From NCBI GenBank assembly GCA_000004985.1, contig GG738851.1: DNA of 64,000 nucleotides; one strand, given 5' to 3'. A program made the position numbers and the translations under genes. The notes below the pieces were generated by a model. The model searched no databases, was not told the origin of the DNA, and was given only the letters and a program-made list of their open reading frames with translations. The DNA comes from Naegleria gruberi. Lineage: Eukaryota. Positions 15,177 through 33,522 of the stretch are shown piece after piece (within the stretch, counting starts at the first letter, position 1; each line of letters begins with the position of its first letter).

Positions 15177-17248
15177 TTAATATTTTTTCTCATTGGAATG
15201 GAGTATGGCATTGGTACTGCCATTAGATTGCATCTTTGAGTTTGGAATAAATCTTCCTTCTCTAGTTTTTAAACTATTTGGAAGCATCATGAATAATTCT
15301 CTTTTTTCCTTGATACCCTGAAGTGAATGATATCCATAGGAATTAAGAAAGAGTTTTCCACATTCTTCCTCGATATTTGAATTATTTTCCAACATGTCAT
15401 ATAGTTCCTTACTAATAAACGTGGATCCTCCCAATGCAATATCTGCTATTCTCGCAGCTAAATTCACTCCAGGTCCAAAGTAATCTGTTCTTTTTGTAGT
15501 TGGATCAAGTTGTGCAGAGTATTCACCTTCACTCAAGAAATGTAATCCCATTCTAACTCTAAAACCATTGAATATTATTTGACCATCGTCGTCCACTGTT
15601 TCTACATTTGTTGGGAATGATAATAGTGATGGAGGCCAATCTTCTTTCATCATACGTGTATGTATCAAATTTACACATTTGACAGCATCTACAACTGATC
15701 CAAAAGCAACCATAAAGGAATCACCTTCTGTTTTAACTTCATATCCATTAAATGCTGTAAGAAGCGACCTCACAATTTCATGATGCCTCTTTATACAATG
15801 ATCCATATCCTCTTTTGGGACATGCTCCCATATTTTGGTTGAGTTTTGAATGTCTGAAAACATTATCAAAATGGGTTTACCAGAAGGTCCTTCTTCAATA
15901 TAACTCATAATCTTGTGCAATTCCCTGTGTTTTCTCACGTAATAACATCTCACACCACCAACCAATGCCAACGTAAAACACAAAGACAATGCAACAGAAC
16001 CCACAGCAATCATTGCATATCCAAACTGTTCCAAATGTGGTAAAGAACTCAGAGTGAGTGTCCCACAGGATATCTGGTTAACAATGCTGTTAACCAAGTG
16101 CTCCTTATATGAGTTTGGAATGGGGGCAAAATAATTAGTCTCAAATATCAGGTCAGATGTTGATGGAGTTGAAATTGTATAAATCCATGATAGAAAGTTG
16201 AATATGAATTTCTTCTTATCGCAACTTGAAAGGGTTTTTCTAAAAAGAAAATAGCTCACACCTGCACAAGGATAGCTTTCTGCGTCTCCATCAACAATTT
16301 CCACAAAATAATTGTCAACAGTTAGAAAATTCTGAGCAGCAGCTTTGAATGAGCTAATGCTTGGAGCTACAGGATTTCCTGCCTTATTAAGTATTTTCGC
16401 AACTGGAATTGACATGAAAGCTGCATCAGCAGGGCTGCCATATCCAATAGAATACTCCAATTTAATAACACTTTCAGTTACAGCAAGACTTGTTAAAACT
16501 GAAACAAAATTGGTACTTGTTATATTCGGAAACATTGTAACTTTACCATATTTCCATAAGGTAGGACTGAAATGTGACAGAGAAGAAGTAAATATACTTG
16601 TAGAACCTGAAGATGTAGATCTTACTATAGGCTGAATAGGATGATTTGGTAATGTTTCACTATTGGTCTGCTGTATTCTGTTGTCATTCCAATACTGAAT
16701 TTCACCAGAGAATATACCAGCAACAGCACTTCTACTCAATATAAGTTGTGACTTAAAGTTGGGAATATTGTACAACAAAGCTACCCCAGAAATAAAGAGA
16801 GGAACCATTTCCAAGTTTTGATCTTCTAGTTCGGTTTTTGTTAAAGAGGTTTCAGAAACTGCAAAATCATAATCTCCTTGTTTTAGTTTGTTAAGCCCTT
16901 CACCAGATCCTAACAGAGTTAACAATCAATAGTTCAAACAAACTTACCCACACTGTCATATAATATTGAGTAAATGGGACTATCTTGAATACTATTGAAT
17001 AACGAAAGCAAAGAATTCATTACTTGCTTTGCGAGAGAACTTCCTCCTCCTCCGACTATTAAACTTGGGATATCATCATTATGATTTTCATTATTTACAG
17101 TAGTGTACAATAGTGATAGTGTTGGGGTTTTGGAACATAAATATACAAATAATAGGGGAATGAGTATAGTGGTCATCAATAGTGCAAGAGTAATAAGTAT
17201 TATTGGTCTCAGTGTGTGAGAATCAGATTCTTTGTGAAATCCTAGCAT
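15177..17248 (-). CDS. receptor-type class III adenylyl/guanylyl cyclase with a PstS-like phosphate-binding (PBP) ectodomain; complement(join(15177..16909,16948..17248))
   Basis: Signal-anchor TM, then an ectodomain with LLGSGEGLNKLKQGDYDFAVSETS (periplasmic phosphate-binding protein signature). A TM follows. The cyclase catalytic core reads FSDIQNSTKIW...VKTEGDSFMVAFG...FRVRMGLH...GPGVNLAARI. A 38-nt phase-1 intron (GTAAGT...GTTAG) on the minus strand joins the two ORFs. Confidence 0.8.
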
Positions 17249-17441: not shown

Positions 17442-19877
17442 CTACTTTTTGCTTCTTACCTTTTGTAAATAGTTCATTCTCACATTCCTTGTTGCTAAAT
17501 TGTATAGTAAAACTTCATTATAAGAATGAGAAATTGATTTGATATACTCAAAGTCGTTCTTGAGCTCCTCTGCAGCATATGCAAAACTCTCTGGCTGTAG
17601 TCTCACTGCCAAAGCAACAAGATCTCTATTGCTTTTCAAAGTAGCAGATGCATACTGGAGATTGGTTGGATCGCAACGTATTGCTTGTGCCATTAAATTC
17701 GAATCATTCCTTAATCCTTCTGATGCATATTTAATAAGCTTTGTAAACTGACTACTGTAATAAATTTCAAATATCTTCTTAAAGAAATCTATATTGTTGG
17801 AATATTTCAAAATATGTACTAAGATCTTGTCTTCACATGACAAATATTTTGGTAACAGGGAGCAGAGATTATCTGTTGTGACCATCAGATTCGGTACAAA
17901 CTCTAAGATGGGAACCTTATGTGCAATCAATGTAGAAGCACAATAATACCTCAAATATTCTGAAAGAATACCAAATAATGGCACAGGAATTGCTTTTGAA
18001 ATAAAAAGGTCGCTAACAATAGGTGCATGGTCTTCCCCTAAATAATAAAGAATAGAAGGAGCTAAATCCTTTGGGAATGAATGGCAGACAAAACTGTAAG
18101 CATGTTCATAGAGAGTGGGATCTAACAGAATTATTGCAGCCGCAACAATGTATTCATATTCAGAAACTGCTCTTTTGAATAGTTTTAGAAAGTCCCATGC
18201 ATCGTTGGTTAATTTACTTGCCTCCTTCAGAACAAAGTCTTCATTGAAGAGTAAAACTGGACTTGCAAAGTAGAGTAGCAGAAACTTCTCATTCTCATAA
18301 TTATTGGAACACATTCTGTATAGGTCAATCAGGGAGGTTTCGTTATCTTTTGCAAGGATGTGAACTATAATATTAGACCGTAATTGCTTTGCAGAAACCT
18401 TATTAGTGATTGCTGTTTCAATGGCCAAACGAATAATTTCAATATTTCCTCTCAGGTTTGAAGATAAATGTGAAAACAGAAGTGGATTCTTTTCAATACA
18501 CAAGCTCATGAAATCAAAATCATTTCGTAATTCTTCAGAGCCGTATTGTAATATTGATTCATTGTAAGAAAATATTTTCCAAACAAAATCTCTACTATTC
18601 TTCAATTCTTCAGATACATACTGGAACATACCAATATCCAATTTGATAAAATTTTCTGAAAGATTAGCATTATTCCTAATACAATATGGAGCATTCTTAA
18701 AAACAGTCATATTTTCCAAATCACCAGTCAGTGAATAATATTTTGGATTTTGTTTGATATTGTCTTCCAAGTATAAAATTATGCGTGGGTAGAGGGTTAT
18801 TAACATTGAGGTTGTCTCATCACTCGATCTGATTCTATTTGATGCATACCTGATATTCTTAATATCATGAGAGACTGCAATCTTTACCAACTCAAAGTCA
18901 TCTCTAATCTCATCAGAACACAATTCCAATAGAGAAGGATCTCGTTCCAATACAATGCGCATTAAATTGTTGTCATTGTAAATATTTGTTGGAAGGAGAG
19001 TTGAAGGCAACATTCGTTTTTGAATTGCAATTGACCAAAATTCCTCACCTTGGCTCTTATAATAAGTTTCGAAAATCCACCTACTTCCTTGAGTGTCAGC
19101 AACATTTATGCTAAAATCTAAGGTGTTACGAACTAGTGGTGAAACATCCCATAACCGATTGGGACTTGTATTCAGAGCAATTAATGCTATTTCTTGGTCA
19201 AGCTTGAACTTGTTGTCTAAATAGGCCAAAATGGCCCCATGATAACTGACAGCCTGCTTGACTAATTCTCTATTACTTTTAAATTGGGTAGCTGTAAAAA
19301 TCAATTCCTTATCTTCCCTCAATTTTTCATCAGTACAATATTTGAGAACTCTTTTTGGATACCTGAATAATTGAACTAAACCATCATGAATACAGTCTGA
19401 ATGAGAAAGCTTTTTCCACACTTTGTGAATATCATTTCCACAATCACCTATATCCAATGCAATTTCTATTAACTCTCTATCAGATCTCAATAATTCAGAA
19501 GCATATCTAAAGAATACTTGCTTCTCTCTTATTAGCTCCTTCATCAATTCCCTATCATTTTTCATTGTATCAGAGGCAAATATTTCAAAAAAGTACCATC
19601 TCAACTTTGCTAATCTCTTCACAAACGTGTAATCTTCCAAATATTGTGGAGGGATAGGATTTTTTCTTACAAATCTTCTCATTGATCTATCAGACCATTT
19701 TTTTTTCTCTAATTTCTTCAATTTATCTAGATAATCTAATTTTCCAATATTTTGTTTAATACTATCATGCCTAAATTCTTTAAATTTTTGAAAAATAGAA
19801 TTATTGGAGTAAAAATCGGAATCTAGTTGTGAATTATTGGGCAGATAATCTAGGACGAGGACATGTTGTTTCTCCAT
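17442..19877 (-). CDS. DUF4116-repeat protein (paralog 1)
   Basis: Repeated about 30-aa units: NDRELMKELIREKQVFFRYASELLRSDRELIEIAL and LQYGSEELRNDFDFMSLCIEKNPLLFSHLSSNLRGNIEIIRLAIE. Confidence 0.6.
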   Translation of the reverse strand: MEKQHVLVLDYLPNNSQLDSDFYSNNSIFQKFKEFRHDSIKQNIGKLDYLDKLKKLEKKKWSDRSMRRFVRKNPIPPQYLEDYTFVKRLAKLRWYFFEIFASDTMKNDRELMKELIREKQVFFRYASELLRSDRELIEIALDIGDCGNDIHKVWKKLSHSDCIHDGLVQLFRYPKRVLKYCTDEKLREDKELIFTATQFKSNRELVKQAVSYHGAILAYLDNKFKLDQEIALIALNTSPNRLWDVSPLVRNTLDFSINVADTQGSRWIFETYYKSQGEEFWSIAIQKRMLPSTLLPTNIYNDNNLMRIVLERDPSLLELCSDEIRDDFELVKIAVSHDIKNIRYASNRIRSSDETTSMLITLYPRIILYLEDNIKQNPKYYSLTGDLENMTVFKNAPYCIRNNANLSENFIKLDIGMFQYVSEELKNSRDFVWKIFSYNESILQYGSEELRNDFDFMSLCIEKNPLLFSHLSSNLRGNIEIIRLAIETAITNKVSAKQLRSNIIVHILAKDNETSLIDLYRMCSNNYENEKFLLLYFASPVLLFNEDFVLKEASKLTNDAWDFLKLFKRAVSEYEYIVAAAIILLDPTLYEHAYSFVCHSFPKDLAPSILYYLGEDHAPIVSDLFISKAIPVPLFGILSEYLRYYCASTLIAHKVPILEFVPNLMVTTDNLCSLLPKYLSCEDKILVHILKYSNNIDFFKKIFEIYYSSQFTKLIKYASEGLRNDSNLMAQAIRCDPTNLQYASATLKSNRDLVALAVRLQPESFAYAAEELKNDFEYIKSISHSYNEVLLYNLATRNVRMNYLQKVRSKK

Positions 19878-29618: not shown

Positions 29619-30524
29619 TTATTGTTGTTTACATTCACTTTTCTTTGAACCTCGTCTGTCGTGCTGATGGGCGTTTCCATTATTGTTTCGATTATTTTGA
29701 TTTTGTTGATGGGAATAGTTTGAATTATTATTATAGGATTGATAATTACTACTAAATGGATTGTTTCCCGGATTTGAATTTACATTACTACGATTATTGC
29801 TATAATTCTGATAGTTGGCATTATTATTCTGATAATTATTCTGTTGATGAGAAGATCCTCCAGTTGGACTGGAAAATCTATTTTGTTGTTGTTGCTGTTG
29901 TTGATAACCTGTTCCACTACTAGTATTTTGAGTGGAATTATTTGATGGAGTAGTATGTGAAGGTGTTGGTTGTTTTTGAAGTTGAGCATTCAATTTTCTG
30001 ACCTTATCTTTCAATTCTTCATTATCCAATCCCAACATGGCATTTCTCTGTTCCAGAGTTGATAACTTTGATGTCAATTCAAGTACCTGAAGCTCATACT
30101 TCTCCAAAATATGTCTAACCTTATAATAAGAACATTCCTCATAGTGCTTTTGTAGATCAGTTATTTTTCCACAATACAAACATCCATATTTTGCCATATC
30201 ACAAGGTTTTGAAATATTCTCACAAAGTCTCTCAAGATGATCCTTTAAATTTCCTCTTTTAACCTTCTTTTGAGAACATTGATTAGGACAATCAACTTCC
30301 AAATCATTTACAGTCCTCTCTACAAATCTATTAAACGCAAAACTAGAGGAATCATTTTGATCTTTTATAATAATAGATTTTCTACACTGAGGACAAGATG
30401 GATTTCTCTCCGACCACTCTTTTATACACTCATAACAATACAGTGTTCCACAAGCATTACACTCTCTATTATTTTCTACAAGATTTGTACAGATCGGACA
30501 TGAGAGTGCTTCAACTGATGCCAT
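29619..30524 (-). CDS. RING / TRAF-type zinc finger protein with a coiled coil and a Q/N-rich tail
   Basis: C3HC4 RING (CPICTN...CGTLYCYECIKEW...CPQCR). TRAF-type zinc finger (CPNQC...HLERLC...CLYCGK...HYEEC). The tail contains QQQQQQQN and many N/Y/Q repeats. Confidence 0.75.
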   Translation of the reverse strand: MASVEALSCPICTNLVENNRECNACGTLYCYECIKEWSERNPSCPQCRKSIIIKDQNDSSSFAFNRFVERTVNDLEVDCPNQCSQKKVKRGNLKDHLERLCENISKPCDMAKYGCLYCGKITDLQKHYEECSYYKVRHILEKYELQVLELTSKLSTLEQRNAMLGLDNEELKDKVRKLNAQLQKQPTPSHTTPSNNSTQNTSSGTGYQQQQQQQNRFSSPTGGSSHQQNNYQNNNANYQNYSNNRSNVNSNPGNNPFSSNYQSYNNNSNYSHQQNQNNRNNNGNAHQHDRRGSKKSECKQQ

Positions 30525-31172: not shown

Positions 31173-33522
31173 ATGTCGAGGACAACATCAAGAACATCAT
31201 CTAAGGGAAATATGGTAACACCATTTTCCATTGATACAATTGAAGAACCGGAATCAACTCCCAATTCATCAGACAAGAAATCGAGATGTTGGATGTGCTC
31301 TCCAAAGAAAGTCCTCAGCTTGAGGAATATCATCATTACACTGATTTCATCATCGATCATTATTATTGCCTTCATTGTGTGGATTATTGGATTCACTGCT
31401 TCCAATTCCTCAACAAAGATACTCAGTGATAAATTAAAAGACAGTTCAACCGAGAGAATTGTAGTAATGATTGAGGGAATGTTTACACAGGCACAGGAAT
31501 TGGCTCTCTCCTATCGATATTTCTATGATAAACAAACGAATCATATGAGGAATTTTCTGGAGGATCGATCTTTGTATGAATATTCAGTGAAGAATCTCTT
31601 GTTTTCATCACTGATAACGAGGCAAGGTTTGATTAATTCTGTGAATTTTGTCTTTGAGAGTGGACATGTTGTGGGATGGGAATGTAACCTTAATGCCTGT
31701 GATTATTTCATTTCGAAACAGGATGATTTGAGGCTGATGGCTTATAATTATGATTTTGAATTGGAAACATTGGCCAACTCGACAACATATGAAGTACCAA
31801 ACTTTAATGCCAGTATCATTATTCCAACCTATAGCATTGTAACCAACGCAGCAAAAGTGGATAAATCTCTGAGGAAAACTGGCATGTTTTTTCCAATTAG
31901 TAGACACGTTCTCGTATCCAGCATGTATGTCACAAGTGTTGCCATTCCCTATTATGGATTAGATGGAAACATGTTAGGAACCTCAAATGTTGTCTTTTAC
32001 GTCGACACCTTAAATGCCAAAGTTAGAAGTGCGAATCCATCTATTGGAGGATACATTCTAGTTCTAGAAGATAGTGGTGTGATTGTAGCTCACTCATTTG
32101 CCAATCTCACAGCCAACATGGAGAAACCATGTTATTTGGGAGGAAATCTATTGGTTCAAACTTTGTGTTCATATTTATTACCTGATCAGAATAGCTCTTC
32201 AATATCTGATCGATTTGGAAATACTCCCTCGAGTAAGTTTAGTTTGGAAGGGTTTTCTGTCCAGAGAAAGGAGCTCAAATTTCCAGGTATTACATGGCAT
32301 GTCTTGATTGCAATTCCAGATGAGGAAATATTGGGAGACATTCTGATTCAATCGTATAATACTGTGTGGATTTCTGCTCTTGTTCTGGTTGCAGCAATAA
32401 TATTCTCTGTCATTACAACATTTTCACTGTTCAGAACTTTATCCATGTTGGCTCGTTGCTTTACAGATATTCAAAATTTGGATTTGGATGCACCAACCAT
32501 TGTCAAAGCAACATCAATTCTAACTGCAGTCTATGAATTACGTGAGCTCCAAAACAATTTTAAGAGCATGATTGTCACATTGAAATCCATTAGAAAGTTT
32601 GTCCCAGTTCAAATTATTAGGAAAATTCTAATAACTGGGAGGGAGGCATCTCTAGGTATTGAGGATGCTGATGCAACCATTTTCTTTTTGGATATTGCTG
32701 GGTTTACCACCATGTCAGAAAAGATGGAGCCGAAAGCTCTGGTCGATTTGGCATCCAGTGTATTCGAAAGTTGTTCTCAATCTATTAACAAGCACAATGG
32801 TGTCATTGACAAATTCATTGGTGATGCTGTCATGGCACTGTGGAATGTTCCGACAAGAACCAAAGACCACGAATATCATGCCCTCCAATCAGCCATTGAA
32901 ATTCAATTGGAAATGGAAATGAAAAATGTACCAGTTCGTATTGGAATACATTCAGGAAGAGTAAAGGCTGGAAATATTGGAAGTGTGGATCGATTCAGTT
33001 TTAGTGTTTTGGGAGATTGTCCTAACGTTGCTTCCAGATTTGAGGGCGCCAACAAGGTTCGTAAATATATAATTATATTTTGCATTACTAATAATAATGT
33101 CGTAGGTCTACATGAGTAAGATCATATGTGGATCAAGTACAATAGAAGTTGCATTGCTGAGCGAGGAAAGATTAGCCATCAAGGATCCATCCTTGAAGAG
33201 AATTGTAAATAGAAGACTCGACAAGTTGAAACTCATTGGAAAGGAACATCCAGTTCTTGCCTATCAGATATTCTTGAGTGAAAATCCCAAACATACCAAT
33301 GGATTGGATAGCAGAGATTTGAAAATGTATGAGAAGGGATATGACTATCTCGTTGAAAAGCAATATAAGGAAGCTCTTTCAATATTCTATACTTTGGGAG
33401 ACAAGGCACCGAATGATATGGTCATTAGAAGAAAGATTAATCTGTGCAGATCTCTTGTTGAAAATGCTGGTATTGTTGATGGAAAGAAATTTGAAGGATT
33501 TGTTGAAATTACTGGCAAGTAA
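31173..33522 (+). CDS. receptor-type class III adenylyl/guanylyl cyclase with a large extracellular sensor domain; join(31173..33056,33106..33522)
   Basis: TM1 lies near residue 55, followed by an ectodomain of about 330 aa and TM2. Cyclase core: ATIFFLDIAGFTTMSE...DKFIGDAVMALW...RIGIHSG. The domain continues in exon 2 (KIICGSSTIEVALLSE...LIGKEHPVLAYQIF). The 49-nt intron (GTTCGT...CGTAG) is phase 0. Confidence 0.8.

What the first reader, a model, noticed from the sequence alone, without database searches (positions are those of the whole stretch)
15177..17248. Phosphate-binding-protein (PstS-like) ectodomain fused to a class III cyclase
The extracellular region begins with LLGSGEGLNKLKQGDYDFAVSETS, the hallmark of periplasmic phosphate-binding proteins. 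A single TM and a complete class III cyclase catalytic domain follow. This is a one-component receptor architecture that could couple extracellular phosphate, or a related anion, directly to cyclic-nucleotide synthesis. A second receptor cyclase with an unrelated ~330-aa ectodomain lies 14 kb away on the opposite strand (31173-33522). That suggests a diversified family of sensor cyclases. The residue preceding the (F/T)xGD motif is Lys in both, which favours ATP as substrate.
Basis: partly seen in the sequence, partly recalled or inferred. Interest (0 to 1): 0.65.

Follow-up and report, generated by a model that had tools for sequence, protein, structure and literature searches.

The report
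Phosphate-binding receptor fused to adenylate cyclase
A Naegleria gruberi gene encodes a membrane receptor whose outside half is a bacterial-type phosphate-binding protein and whose inside half is a cAMP-making enzyme, so it is a credible, untested candidate for a direct cell-surface phosphate sensor in a eukaryote.

Summary
The window is Naegleria gruberi NEG-M nuclear DNA. On the minus strand, two exons (17248-16948 and 16909-15177) joined across a 38-nt GT..AG intron encode a 677-aa protein. It has an N-terminal signal or anchor, a full-length PstS-type phosphate-binding domain, one transmembrane helix and a class III cyclase domain.

- **Ectodomain:** it matches PstS profiles (Pfam PBP_like_2 6e-23; TIGR00975 7e-47 over 308 of 315 positions). 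An AlphaFold model (pLDDT 88.7) superposes on phosphate-bound PstS crystal structures (TM 0.83).
- **Phosphate ligands:** these positions are kept or conservatively changed. The one chemical change is Asp56 to Glu, which many family members share.
- **Cyclase:** all six catalytic residues are present, with the Lys/Asp pair typical of adenylate cyclases. The closest solved structures are trypanosome receptor cyclases.
- **Public annotation:** EFC48490.1, "predicted protein", is N-terminally truncated.
- **Distribution:** the same architecture occurs across Discoba (Willaertia, Andalucia, Euglena, Entosiphon, Papus). Decayed copies occur in giant viruses. I found none in prokaryotes and no paper describing it.

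The most likely function is extracellular phosphate controlling cAMP synthesis; this is inferred, not shown. The second cyclase is real but belongs to a different, already described type. I rate this a new variant of a known kind, interest about 0.6.

The parts
16948..17248 (-). Exon 1 of the PstS-cyclase gene (codons 1-100 plus the first base of codon 101). It encodes the signal or anchor segment and the first strand-loop-helix of the PstS domain (GGGGSSLA).
   Evidence: ORF list, sequence, splice reconstruction. The N-terminal part aligns with orthologues. Absent from the public model EFC48490.1, which starts at Met135.
16910..16947 (-). 38-nt intron (GTAAGT...TTAG).
   Evidence: Removing it restores the reading frame and a continuous match to PstS and to orthologues across the junction.
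15177..16909 (-). Exon 2, including the stop codon. It encodes the rest of the PstS domain, the TM helix and the cyclase domain.
17138..17206 (-). N-terminal hydrophobic segment (residues about 15-37): a signal peptide or signal anchor.
   Evidence: Hydropathy scan. Orthologues carry short N-terminal hydrophobic leaders.
16056..17065 (-). PstS-type phosphate-binding ectodomain (residues about 62-385, interrupted by the intron). Predicted phosphate ligands are S71, L72 (backbone), S102, E120, R197, S201, G202 and S203. C330 and C382 form a conserved Cys pair.
   Evidence: PBP_like_2 6e-23. TIGR00975 7e-47. PDB PstS hits at 1e-21 to 1e-23. Ligand-column table. AF2 pLDDT 88.7. Foldseek TM 0.83 to PstS.
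15948..16019 (-). Transmembrane helix (residues about 398-421), followed by the basic stretch RCYYVRKHR.
   Evidence: Hydropathy scan. Conserved position in the family alignment.
15336..15875 (-). Class III nucleotidyl cyclase catalytic domain (residues about 446-625). Metal-binding D453 and D497; substrate-specifying K493 and D576; transition-state N583 and R587.
   Evidence: Guanylate_cyc 4e-21. Closest solved structures are T. brucei GRESAG4.3 and 4.1, E 3.6e-22 and 2.3e-20. Residue numbering; conservation.
31173..33522 (+). Second receptor cyclase gene (exons 31173-33056 and 33106-33522, 49-nt intron), 766 aa. Layout: TM1, an ectodomain of about 320 aa, TM2, a linker, a class III cyclase (D507, K547, D551, S611, N618, R622) and a C-terminal tail.
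   Evidence: Identical to EFC48361.1. Guanylate_cyc 8.8e-19 and a sub-threshold dCache_1 match. Closest PDB entries are bacterial class IIIb cyclases.

Best explanation
The gene encodes a single-pass, receptor-type adenylate cyclase. Its extracellular ligand-binding module is a PstS-type (type II periplasmic-binding-protein) phosphate-binding domain.

Proposed mechanism:
1. Extracellular orthophosphate binds in the cleft between the two lobes, contacting S71/L72, S102, E120, R197 and S201-G202-S203, and closes the clamshell.
2. The closure is passed through the short juxtamembrane stalk and the single TM helix.
3. This changes how two cytoplasmic catalytic domains pair. Class III cyclases are active only as dimers, and this chain carries all six catalytic residues, so a homodimer would have two complete sites.
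4. cAMP output therefore tracks external phosphate.

Shown here: the gene structure, the domain identities, the fold, conservation of the ligand and catalytic residues, and conservation of the architecture across Discoba.

Inferred: that phosphate is the ligand, that binding regulates the cyclase, the sign of that regulation, and the downstream biology.
For: - **Domain identity.** PBP_like_2 and Guanylate_cyc both score above Pfam gathering thresholds. TIGR00975 PstS gives 7e-47 end to end. All 23 PDB sequence hits at E<=0.001 are phosphate-binding, DING or phosphate-transport proteins.
- **Fold.** The AF2 model of residues 102-400 has pLDDT 88.7 and pTM 0.87. Its top 49 Foldseek PDB hits are all phosphate-binding proteins, with TM about 0.83 and rmsd 2.2-2.4 A to phosphate-bound PstS.
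- **Ligand residues against E. coli PstS.** T10 to S71, F11 to L72 (backbone contact), S38 = S102, D56 to E120, R135 = R197, S139 = S201, G140 = G202, T141 to S203.
- **Conservation.** Of the six invariant columns in the 22-sequence ectodomain alignment, three are phosphate ligands (R197, S201, G202) and a fourth, G101, flanks S102.
- **Glu at position 56.** It is shared by Willaertia, Entosiphon and Euglena receptors and by long Streptomyces proteins annotated as PstS.
- **D137 to Thr.** This is the same substitution as in crystallised E. coli PstS mutant 1QUL, which still holds phosphate according to the entry title.
- **Catalytic residues.** D453, K493, D497, D576, N583 and R587 are all present. 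D453, D576, N583 and R587 are at least 90% conserved in the family alignment; K493 and D497 are replaced in a few members. The closest solved structures are trypanosome receptor adenylate cyclases.
- **Persistence of the architecture.** About 25 cluster representatives carry PstS + TM + cyclase. Named carriers span Heterolobosea, Jakobida, Euglenida and Kinetoplastea.
Against: - There are no binding or activity data of any kind.
- Asp56, the residue that in E. coli PstS accepts a hydrogen bond from protonated phosphate, is Glu here. The longer side chain could shift affinity or specificity.
- T141 is Ser, and D137, which forms a salt bridge with R135, is Thr.
I could not inspect coordinates.
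- PstS proteins are normally monomers, so how clamshell closure would alter cyclase dimerisation is unknown.
- A contig from another sample (ERR1078381) carries a 4-bp deletion that frameshifts the cyclase C-terminus. This is either an assembly error or evidence that the gene is dispensable in some strains.
- No expression evidence was available for the 38-nt intron.
Confidence: 0.6

Rival explanations
1. The architecture is the same, but the ectodomain senses a different ligand. Candidates are another tetrahedral oxyanion (arsenate, sulfate, phosphite, vanadate) or a small phosphorylated compound, for example one released by bacterial prey.
For: D56 is Glu, D137 is Thr and T141 is Ser in N. 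gruberi. The score against the PstS equivalog model TIGR00975 is below its trusted cut-off (160 against 205 bits), so this is not an orthodox transporter PstS.
Against: The Arg plus Ser-Gly-Ser/Thr plus Ser set that defines the phosphate pocket is intact and is the most conserved feature of the family. A carboxylate is kept at position 56. By established knowledge of PstS against sulfate-binding protein, that carboxylate is what discriminates protonated phosphate from sulfate. All top structural neighbours are phosphate binders.
Confidence: 0.2
2. The PstS-like domain no longer binds a ligand. It serves as a structural, dimerisation or trafficking module, and the cyclase is constitutive or controlled by something else such as membrane state, osmolarity or a partner protein.
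For: Some family members have clearly decayed pockets: the giant-virus copies P0089 and P0166, and P0082, which has also lost its catalytic residues. So the fold can persist without the binding site. The ligands of the related trypanosome receptor cyclases remain unidentified (PMC7719234).
Against: In N. gruberi and in most Discoba members the pocket residues are retained while the rest of the domain has diverged to 25-37% identity. That pattern is not expected for a ligand-free scaffold.
Confidence: 0.12
3. The locus is not a working gene. It would be a decaying pseudogene, a mis-assembly or a bacterial contaminant, or the two exons would belong to different genes.
For: The public annotation calls only a truncated 543-aa product. 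One other assembly shows a frameshifting 4-bp deletion.
Against: The ORF is intact in the reference window. It lies inside a 693-kb N. gruberi scaffold between annotated eukaryotic genes and has N. gruberi base composition. It carries a canonical spliceosomal intron whose removal restores a conserved domain. Intact counterparts exist in Willaertia and other Discoba. No prokaryotic fusion of this kind was found.
Confidence: 0.05

Closest known systems
Trypanosomatid receptor-type adenylate cyclases (ESAG4 / GRESAG4 family, RACs)
   Same: Overall plan: a large extracellular domain of periplasmic-binding-protein type, one TM helix and a C-terminal class III catalytic domain. The catalytic domain here is closest to GRESAG4.3 and 4.1 among all solved structures (E 3.6e-22 and 2.3e-20). 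It shares the FTDIxxST, YEVKTxGDSFM and DYxGxxxNxAAR motifs and an insertion after a conserved DW. Both occur in Discoba.
   Different: The trypanosome ectodomain is built from Peripla_BP_6 plus PF25493/PF25495 modules. Profile-profile comparison finds no similarity to the PstS domain (hhalign probability 0.35%). The ligands of RACs are unknown, whereas here the ectodomain family predicts one.
Bacterial PstS, the phosphate-binding subunit of the PstSCAB ABC transporter
   Same: Homologous domain over its full length, the same fold, and the same phosphate-coordinating positions.
   Different: It is not a free periplasmic protein serving a transporter. It is covalently tethered through a TM helix to a cyclase in a eukaryote. 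Asp56 is Glu and Asp137 is Thr. It scores below the equivalog cut-off. A conserved Cys pair near the membrane is absent from E. coli PstS.
Animal receptor guanylate cyclases (natriuretic peptide receptor, GC-C)
   Same: Single-pass receptors in which a binding-protein-type ectodomain controls a dimeric class III cyclase.
   Different: By established knowledge, those use a type I (ANF_receptor) ectodomain, have a kinase-homology domain, and make cGMP (Glu/Cys specificity residues). This protein has a type II PstS domain, no kinase-homology domain and Lys/Asp residues.
Indirect PstS signalling in bacteria (PstS-CtpL chemoreceptor in P. aeruginosa; PstSCAB-PhoU-PhoR)
   Same: Phosphate occupancy of PstS is used as a signal, not only for uptake (PMC8050422).
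   Different: In those systems PstS is a separate protein that docks onto a receptor or transporter. Here sensor and effector are one polypeptide, and the output is cAMP.

Membership tests
PstS / PBP_like_2 phosphate-binding proteins | Significant match to the family profile over the whole domain | tested here: met
   PF12849 scores 82.4 bits against a gathering cut-off of 27. TIGR00975 gives E 7e-47 over positions 3-310 of 315.
PstS / PBP_like_2 phosphate-binding proteins | Score above the equivalog (same-function) cut-off of TIGR00975 | tested here: not met
   160 bits against a cut-off of 205. It is a PstS-family domain, not an orthodox transporter PstS.
PstS / PBP_like_2 phosphate-binding proteins | Two-lobed type II binding-protein fold superposable on PstS | tested here: met
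   AF2 pLDDT 88.7. Foldseek TM 0.83 and rmsd 2.2-2.4 A to 8ODS, 1IXH-series and 2Z22; the top 49 hits are all phosphate binders. The model covers residues 102-400 only.
PstS / PBP_like_2 phosphate-binding proteins | Phosphate-coordinating residues (E. coli T10, F11 NH, S38, D56, R135, S139, G140, T141) | tested here: inconclusive
   Four are identical (S38, R135, S139, G140). Two keep the hydroxyl (T10 to S, T141 to S). F11 to L is a backbone contact. D56 to E keeps the carboxylate but lengthens the side chain. This is compatible with binding, not proof of it.
PstS / PBP_like_2 phosphate-binding proteins | Measured high-affinity phosphate binding | not testable with these tools
   Needs purified ectodomain and ITC, MST or a radioligand assay.
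PstS / PBP_like_2 phosphate-binding proteins | Works with a PstCAB ABC transporter | tested here: not met
   The domain is fused in cis to a TM helix and a cyclase. The neighbouring genes are unrelated eukaryotic genes.
Class III nucleotidyl cyclases (adenylate cyclase type) | Match to the catalytic-domain profile | tested here: met
   PF00211 scores 75.8 bits against a cut-off of 21.9.
Class III nucleotidyl cyclases (adenylate cyclase type) | Two metal-binding Asp, transition-state Asn and Arg, all in one chain (competent homodimer) | tested here: met
   D453, D497, N583 and R587.
Class III nucleotidyl cyclases (adenylate cyclase type) | Lys and Asp at the two substrate-specifying positions (ATP rather than GTP) | tested here: met
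   K493 lies in VKTEGD. D576 lies seven residues before N583, the same spacing as D1018/N1025 of mammalian AC C2 (numbering from established knowledge) and as in GRESAG4.
Class III nucleotidyl cyclases (adenylate cyclase type) | Measured cAMP synthesis | not testable with these tools
   Needs an enzyme assay.
Trypanosomatid receptor adenylate cyclases (RAC, GRESAG4/ESAG4) | Ectodomain, single TM, GRESAG4-type catalytic domain | tested here: met
   Topology. The closest PDB entries are 1FX4 and 1FX2.
Trypanosomatid receptor adenylate cyclases (RAC, GRESAG4/ESAG4) | Ectodomain made of Peripla_BP_6 / Peripla_BP_A-cyclase (PF25493, PF25495) modules | tested here: not met
   None of these families hit the N. 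gruberi protein, whereas all hit T. cruzi RAC P0181. hhalign of the PstS alignment against the T. cruzi membrane-proximal domain gives probability 0.35%. The protein works like a RAC but is not a member in the strict sense.
Cache-HAMP-cyclase receptors (for the second gene, 31173-33522) | dCache ectodomain and HAMP linker detectable by profile | tested here: inconclusive
   dCache_1 scores 24.9 bits against a cut-off of 45, over about 60 residues only. No HAMP hit was found in the linker. The closest homologues found are bacterial HAMP + cyclase proteins at 27-28% identity. The AF2 model was unusable (pLDDT 31).

The most novel reading that the evidence does not exclude
This would be the founding example of a dedicated eukaryotic cell-surface orthophosphate receptor: a one-polypeptide phosphate-to-cAMP pathway. 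On this reading it was already present in the common ancestor of Discoba and is the ligand-defined sister design of the orphan trypanosome receptor cyclases. The PstS clamshell would also have been recruited more than once as a eukaryotic sensor module, with a cyclase in Discoba, with multi-pass membrane domains in Chromosphaera, and with kinase-cyclase receptors in giant viruses.
Probability: 0.4. Interest if true: 0.8.

Novelty: new variant of a known kind. Interest (0 to 1): 0.6.

Why it matters
**An open question.** How eukaryotic cells detect external phosphate is unsettled. [quoted passage not shown] By established knowledge, the known routes are intracellular SPX/inositol-pyrophosphate sensing, or transporter-receptors such as yeast Pho84, which feeds into PKA.

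**A testable candidate.** A receptor that joins a phosphate-binding clamshell directly to an adenylate cyclase makes a simple hypothesis with an easy read-out: cAMP against external phosphate.

**A handle on orphan receptors.** Its catalytic domain is of the trypanosome receptor-cyclase type, and the activating ligands of those receptors have never been identified (PMC7719234). It therefore offers a relative with a predicted ligand for working out how this receptor class passes binding across the membrane.

**Practical points.** The public gene model in N. gruberi is truncated and should be corrected. The phosphate-gated cyclase could be developed as a biosensor.

Tried and rejected
1. **Trypanosome ectodomain as a diverged PstS.** I tested whether the membrane-proximal ectodomain of trypanosomatid receptor cyclases (PF25493) is a diverged PstS domain. 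hhalign probability was 0.35%, so I rejected this at the level of sequence profiles.
2. **Bacterial origin of the whole fusion.** A scan of 185,579 prokaryotic species genomes with a cyclase motif gave 152 confirmed relatives. All 80 best matched only the cyclase part, and tblastn with the ectodomain found nothing within 2 kb upstream. The seed motif selects only this cyclase subtype, so PstS fused to other cyclase subtypes would be missed.
3. **Spliced protein as input.** I used the exon-2 translation instead, so the structure model lacks the first 47 residues of the domain.
4. **Second ectodomain.** Single-sequence AlphaFold failed (pLDDT 31). BLASTP against a Cache-cyclase (P0005) was not significant.
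5. **Word-index homology searches.** The single-sequence and alignment queries returned few family members. The family picture therefore rests on the exhaustive HMMER search plus a local domain map.
6. **Selection test.** Comparing with the ERR1078381 contig gave only five substitutions in the coding sequence (three synonymous, two Val to Ile). That is too few for a selection test.
7. **Literature.** Searches for PstS or PBP_like_2 together with cyclase, Naegleria, Euglena, Andalucia or mimivirus found no description of this fusion. Subscription-only papers are not covered.
Full report
**Source of the window.** Ten long ORFs were looked up by exact sequence. Seven are identical to annotated proteins of Naegleria gruberi strain NEG-M, on a 693,645-bp scaffold. 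These include EFC48492.1 (ABC transporter B family) and EFC48489.1 (N-acetyltransferase). GC content is 30-37% throughout. This is eukaryotic nuclear DNA, so the ORF lists have to be read with introns in mind, and gene neighbourhood carries no operon-type information.

**Gene structure.** On the minus strand there is a 104-aa ORF (17248-16934) and a 582-aa ORF (16925-15177).
- The sequence between them reads GACAGTGTGG|GTAAGTTTG...CTCTGTTAG|GATCTGGTGAA.
- Removing these 38 nt (16947-16910) joins the two in frame to give 677 codons.
- The junction falls inside a conserved motif. N. gruberi ILYDSVG|SGEGLNKLKQGDYDF lines up with Willaertia IKYNPIGSGEGLTRLKNGEYDF.
- Exon 1 supplies the GGGGSSLA strand-loop that every complete family member has.
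- With the splice, the match to the PstS model TIGR00975 runs from profile position 3 to 310 of 315.
- The public model EFC48490.1 / XP_002681234.1 / D2V4C1 ("predicted protein", NAEGRDRAFT_63671) is 543 aa and starts at Met135. It lacks the leader and the first 70-odd residues of the binding domain.
- As a check on my splicing, the second cyclase gene, spliced the same way (49-nt intron, 33057-33105), reproduces the annotated 766-aa EFC48361.1 exactly.

**Domain identity.**
- Pfam gives PBP_like_2 (E 6e-23, residues 67-217) and Guanylate_cyc (E 4e-21, residues 446-621), both well above the gathering scores.
- NCBIfam gives PstS TIGR00975 at 7e-47. This is below the equivalog cut-off (160 against 205 bits), as expected for a diverged, fused domain.
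- Against all PDB sequences, all 23 hits at E<=0.001 are phosphate-binding, DING or phosphate-transport proteins. The best are Xanthomonas PstS 8ODS at 8e-23, Yersinia 2Z22, and the E. coli 1IXH series.
- Hydropathy shows two hydrophobic segments, at residues about 15-37 and 398-421. The second is followed by RCYYVRKHR.
- The inferred topology is leader or anchor, ectodomain outside, one TM, cyclase inside.

**Structure.**
I therefore modelled the exon-2 part of the ectodomain (residues 102-400) with a 22-sequence alignment.
- The result was mean pLDDT 88.7 and pTM 0.87.
- Foldseek against the PDB returned phosphate-binding proteins as the first 49 hits. TM-scores were 0.81-0.84 and rmsd 2.2-2.8 A over about 288 columns for phosphate-bound PstS/PhoX structures.
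- I could not inspect coordinates, so pocket geometry is inferred from alignment only.

**Phosphate pocket.** The ligand set of E. coli PstS is T10, F11 (backbone), S38, D56, R135, S139, G140 and T141, with D137 salt-bridged to R135. This set and its numbering come from established knowledge and are consistent with the chain numbering. The N. gruberi residues are:

| E. coli PstS | N. gruberi | Comment |
|---|---|---|
| T10 | S71 | hydroxyl kept |
| F11 | L72 | backbone contact |
| S38 | S102 | identical |
| D56 | E120 | carboxylate kept, side chain longer |
| R135 | R197 | identical |
| D137 | T199 | salt bridge lost |
| S139 | S201 | identical |
| G140 | G202 | identical |
| T141 | S203 | hydroxyl kept |

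- The D137T change is the very mutant crystallised with phosphate bound (1QUL, listed).
- Glu at position 56 is not peculiar to this gene. It also occurs in the Willaertia, Entosiphon and Euglena receptors, several unnamed ones, and long Streptomyces proteins annotated PstS.
- In the 22-sequence ectodomain alignment only six columns are invariant. Three of them are R197, S201 and G202, and a fourth (G101) flanks S102.
- The pocket is therefore the best-conserved part of a domain that has otherwise drifted to 22-37% identity. That is the signature expected if ligand binding is under selection.
- Two cysteines (C330, C382) are at least 90% conserved near the membrane-proximal end. A disulfide there is my inference.

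**Cyclase.**
- The catalytic domain carries D453 and D497 (metals), K493 and D576 (substrate specificity), and N583 and R587 (transition state).
- One chain has the full set, so a homodimer would be catalytically complete. The Lys/Asp pair predicts ATP as substrate.
- The closest solved structures are the T. brucei receptor cyclases GRESAG4.3 (3.6e-22) and GRESAG4.1 (2.3e-20).

**The family.**
- An exhaustive HMMER search of 1.84 billion cluster representatives with the exon-2 protein found many colinear full-length matches.
- A local domain map of the 150 best hits showed about 25 with PstS + TM + cyclase, some with two PstS domains in tandem.
- Named carriers are Willaertia magna KAL9656567.1, Andalucia godoyi ANDGO_00956 and ANDGO_06328 (auto-named "Phosphate-binding protein PstS"), Entosiphon sulcatum, Euglena gracilis EG_transcript_913 and Papus ankaliazontas. 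With Naegleria, all of these belong to Discoba. Pfam confirms both domains in the ones I scanned.
- Moumouviruses encode a 1618-aa "Ser/Thr kinase receptor" with two PstS-like domains, a TM, two kinase domains and a cyclase domain. Its pocket columns are not conserved.
- Two giant-virus contigs in IMG/VR (1.02 Mb and 1.84 Mb) carry relatives that match both halves of the query.
- One metagenomic member (P0082) has lost both the pocket residues and the catalytic residues.
- In prokaryotic species genomes, the 80 best relatives matched the cyclase part only, with no PstS-like sequence within 2 kb upstream.
- On present evidence the fusion is therefore a feature of eukaryotes and giant viruses. 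The limit is that the scan was seeded with a motif of this cyclase subtype.

**Relation to trypanosome receptor cyclases.**
- A T. cruzi receptor cyclase (P0181) has Peripla_BP_6, PF25495 and PF25493 in its ectodomain.
- Its membrane-proximal domain shows no profile similarity to PstS.
- The N. gruberi protein therefore shares the plan and the catalytic lineage of these receptors but not their sensor. It works like one and is not a member in the strict sense.

**The second cyclase (31173-33522, plus strand).**
- It is a two-TM receptor with an ectodomain of about 320 aa.
- Its catalytic domain is closest to bacterial class IIIb cyclases (P. aeruginosa CyaB 3R5G at 2.6e-18, and cyanobacterial CyaC). 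It has K547 and S611 at the specificity positions.
- It is not detectably similar to the first cyclase by pairwise BLASTP (E 0.96).
- The ectodomain gives only a partial, sub-threshold dCache_1 match and could not be modelled.
- Cyclases with Cache and HAMP domains related to N. gruberi genes have already been described as a pan-eukaryotic subfamily (PMC6366073). Naegleria is known to encode at least 81 cyclases (PMC9928731).
- So the second gene is ordinary. The two are neighbours by chance within a very large repertoire, not a local diversifying family.

**Mechanism and confidence.**
- The architecture, fold and residue conservation are shown.
- That phosphate binds, that binding changes cyclase output, and in which direction, are inferred from what PstS domains and dimeric class III cyclases are known to do.
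- I put about 0.6 on phosphate-regulated cAMP synthesis. The main alternatives are another oxyanion or phospho-ligand (0.2), a ligand-free scaffold (0.12) and a non-functional locus (0.05).

**Novelty.**
- Eight literature searches found no description of a PstS-cyclase fusion. The review of solute-binding proteins in signalling covers PstS only as a separate protein docking onto the CtpL chemoreceptor (PMC8050422).
- The proteins are visible in databases but unnamed or auto-named.
- Receptor cyclases with binding-protein ectodomains are a known kind. A phosphate-specific type II clamshell as the sensor is a new variant with a concrete, testable ligand prediction.

Noticed in passing
window 16910-17248 (minus strand): The public N. 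gruberi gene model (EFC48490.1 / XP_002681234.1, 543 aa) starts at internal Met135. It misses exon 1 and the 38-nt intron, so the deposited protein lacks its leader and the first part of the PstS domain.
   Followed up: yes
L001 about 2675, equal to window about 15430 (codon 594 of the cyclase gene): A contig assembled from run ERR1078381 is 99.5% identical. It has a 4-bp deletion (ATTGCATTGGGAGGATCC becomes ATTGCATTGGATCC) that frameshifts the last 80 or so residues of the cyclase domain. It could be a real inactivated allele or an assembly slip at a short GGA repeat.
   Followed up: partly
protein P0053 (Chromosphaera perkinsii, 2386 aa) and P0052: These have four tandem PstS-like domains, some with intact phosphate-pocket residues. 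They are followed by Ephrin_rec_like / NCD3G-like cysteine-rich modules and about seven hydrophobic segments, with a sub-threshold TRP-channel match. This is a different eukaryotic receptor design using the same sensor.
   Followed up: partly
protein P0089 (Moumouvirus australiensis YP_010790095.1); loci L003 (1.02-Mb contig) and L005 (1.84-Mb contig): Giant viruses encode receptor-like proteins with two PstS-like domains, a TM, protein kinase domains and a cyclase domain. The phosphate-pocket columns are not conserved in them.
   Followed up: partly
protein P0082 (metagenomic, 676 aa): This family member keeps the architecture, but both the phosphate-pocket residues and the cyclase catalytic residues are replaced. 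It looks like a doubly dead pseudo-receptor.
   Followed up: no
proteins P0029-P0031, P0033, P0036 and others: The best-scoring relatives of the catalytic domain include long proteins with three to five tandem cyclase domains and no predicted TM segment. Their origin and function were not examined.
   Followed up: no
proteins P0090, P0092, P0149, P0176 (kinetoplastid-like members): They carry an extra 270-385 residues N-terminal to the PstS domain with no Pfam match. In P0092 that region contains a YPLAGPIVVLV motif resembling the PstS YPIxGxTY strand, which suggests a decayed second PstS domain.
   Followed up: no
window 17442-19877 (minus strand): An 811-aa ORF directly upstream of the cyclase gene is made of many copies of a short motif of the type 'NDxELxxxAV...' (an internally repetitive protein). 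An exact-sequence look-up did not find this ORF translation in the protein collection.
   Followed up: no
window 29619-30524 (minus strand): A 301-aa ORF has a Cys-rich RING/zinc-finger-like N-terminus, a coiled-coil-looking middle and a long Gln/Asn/Ser-rich low-complexity tail.
   Followed up: no
residues C330 and C382 of the PstS-cyclase (window about 16261-16259 and 16105-16103): Two cysteines near the membrane-proximal end of the ectodomain are conserved in at least 90% of family members and are absent from E. coli PstS. They may form a disulfide that stiffens the link to the TM helix.
   Followed up: partly
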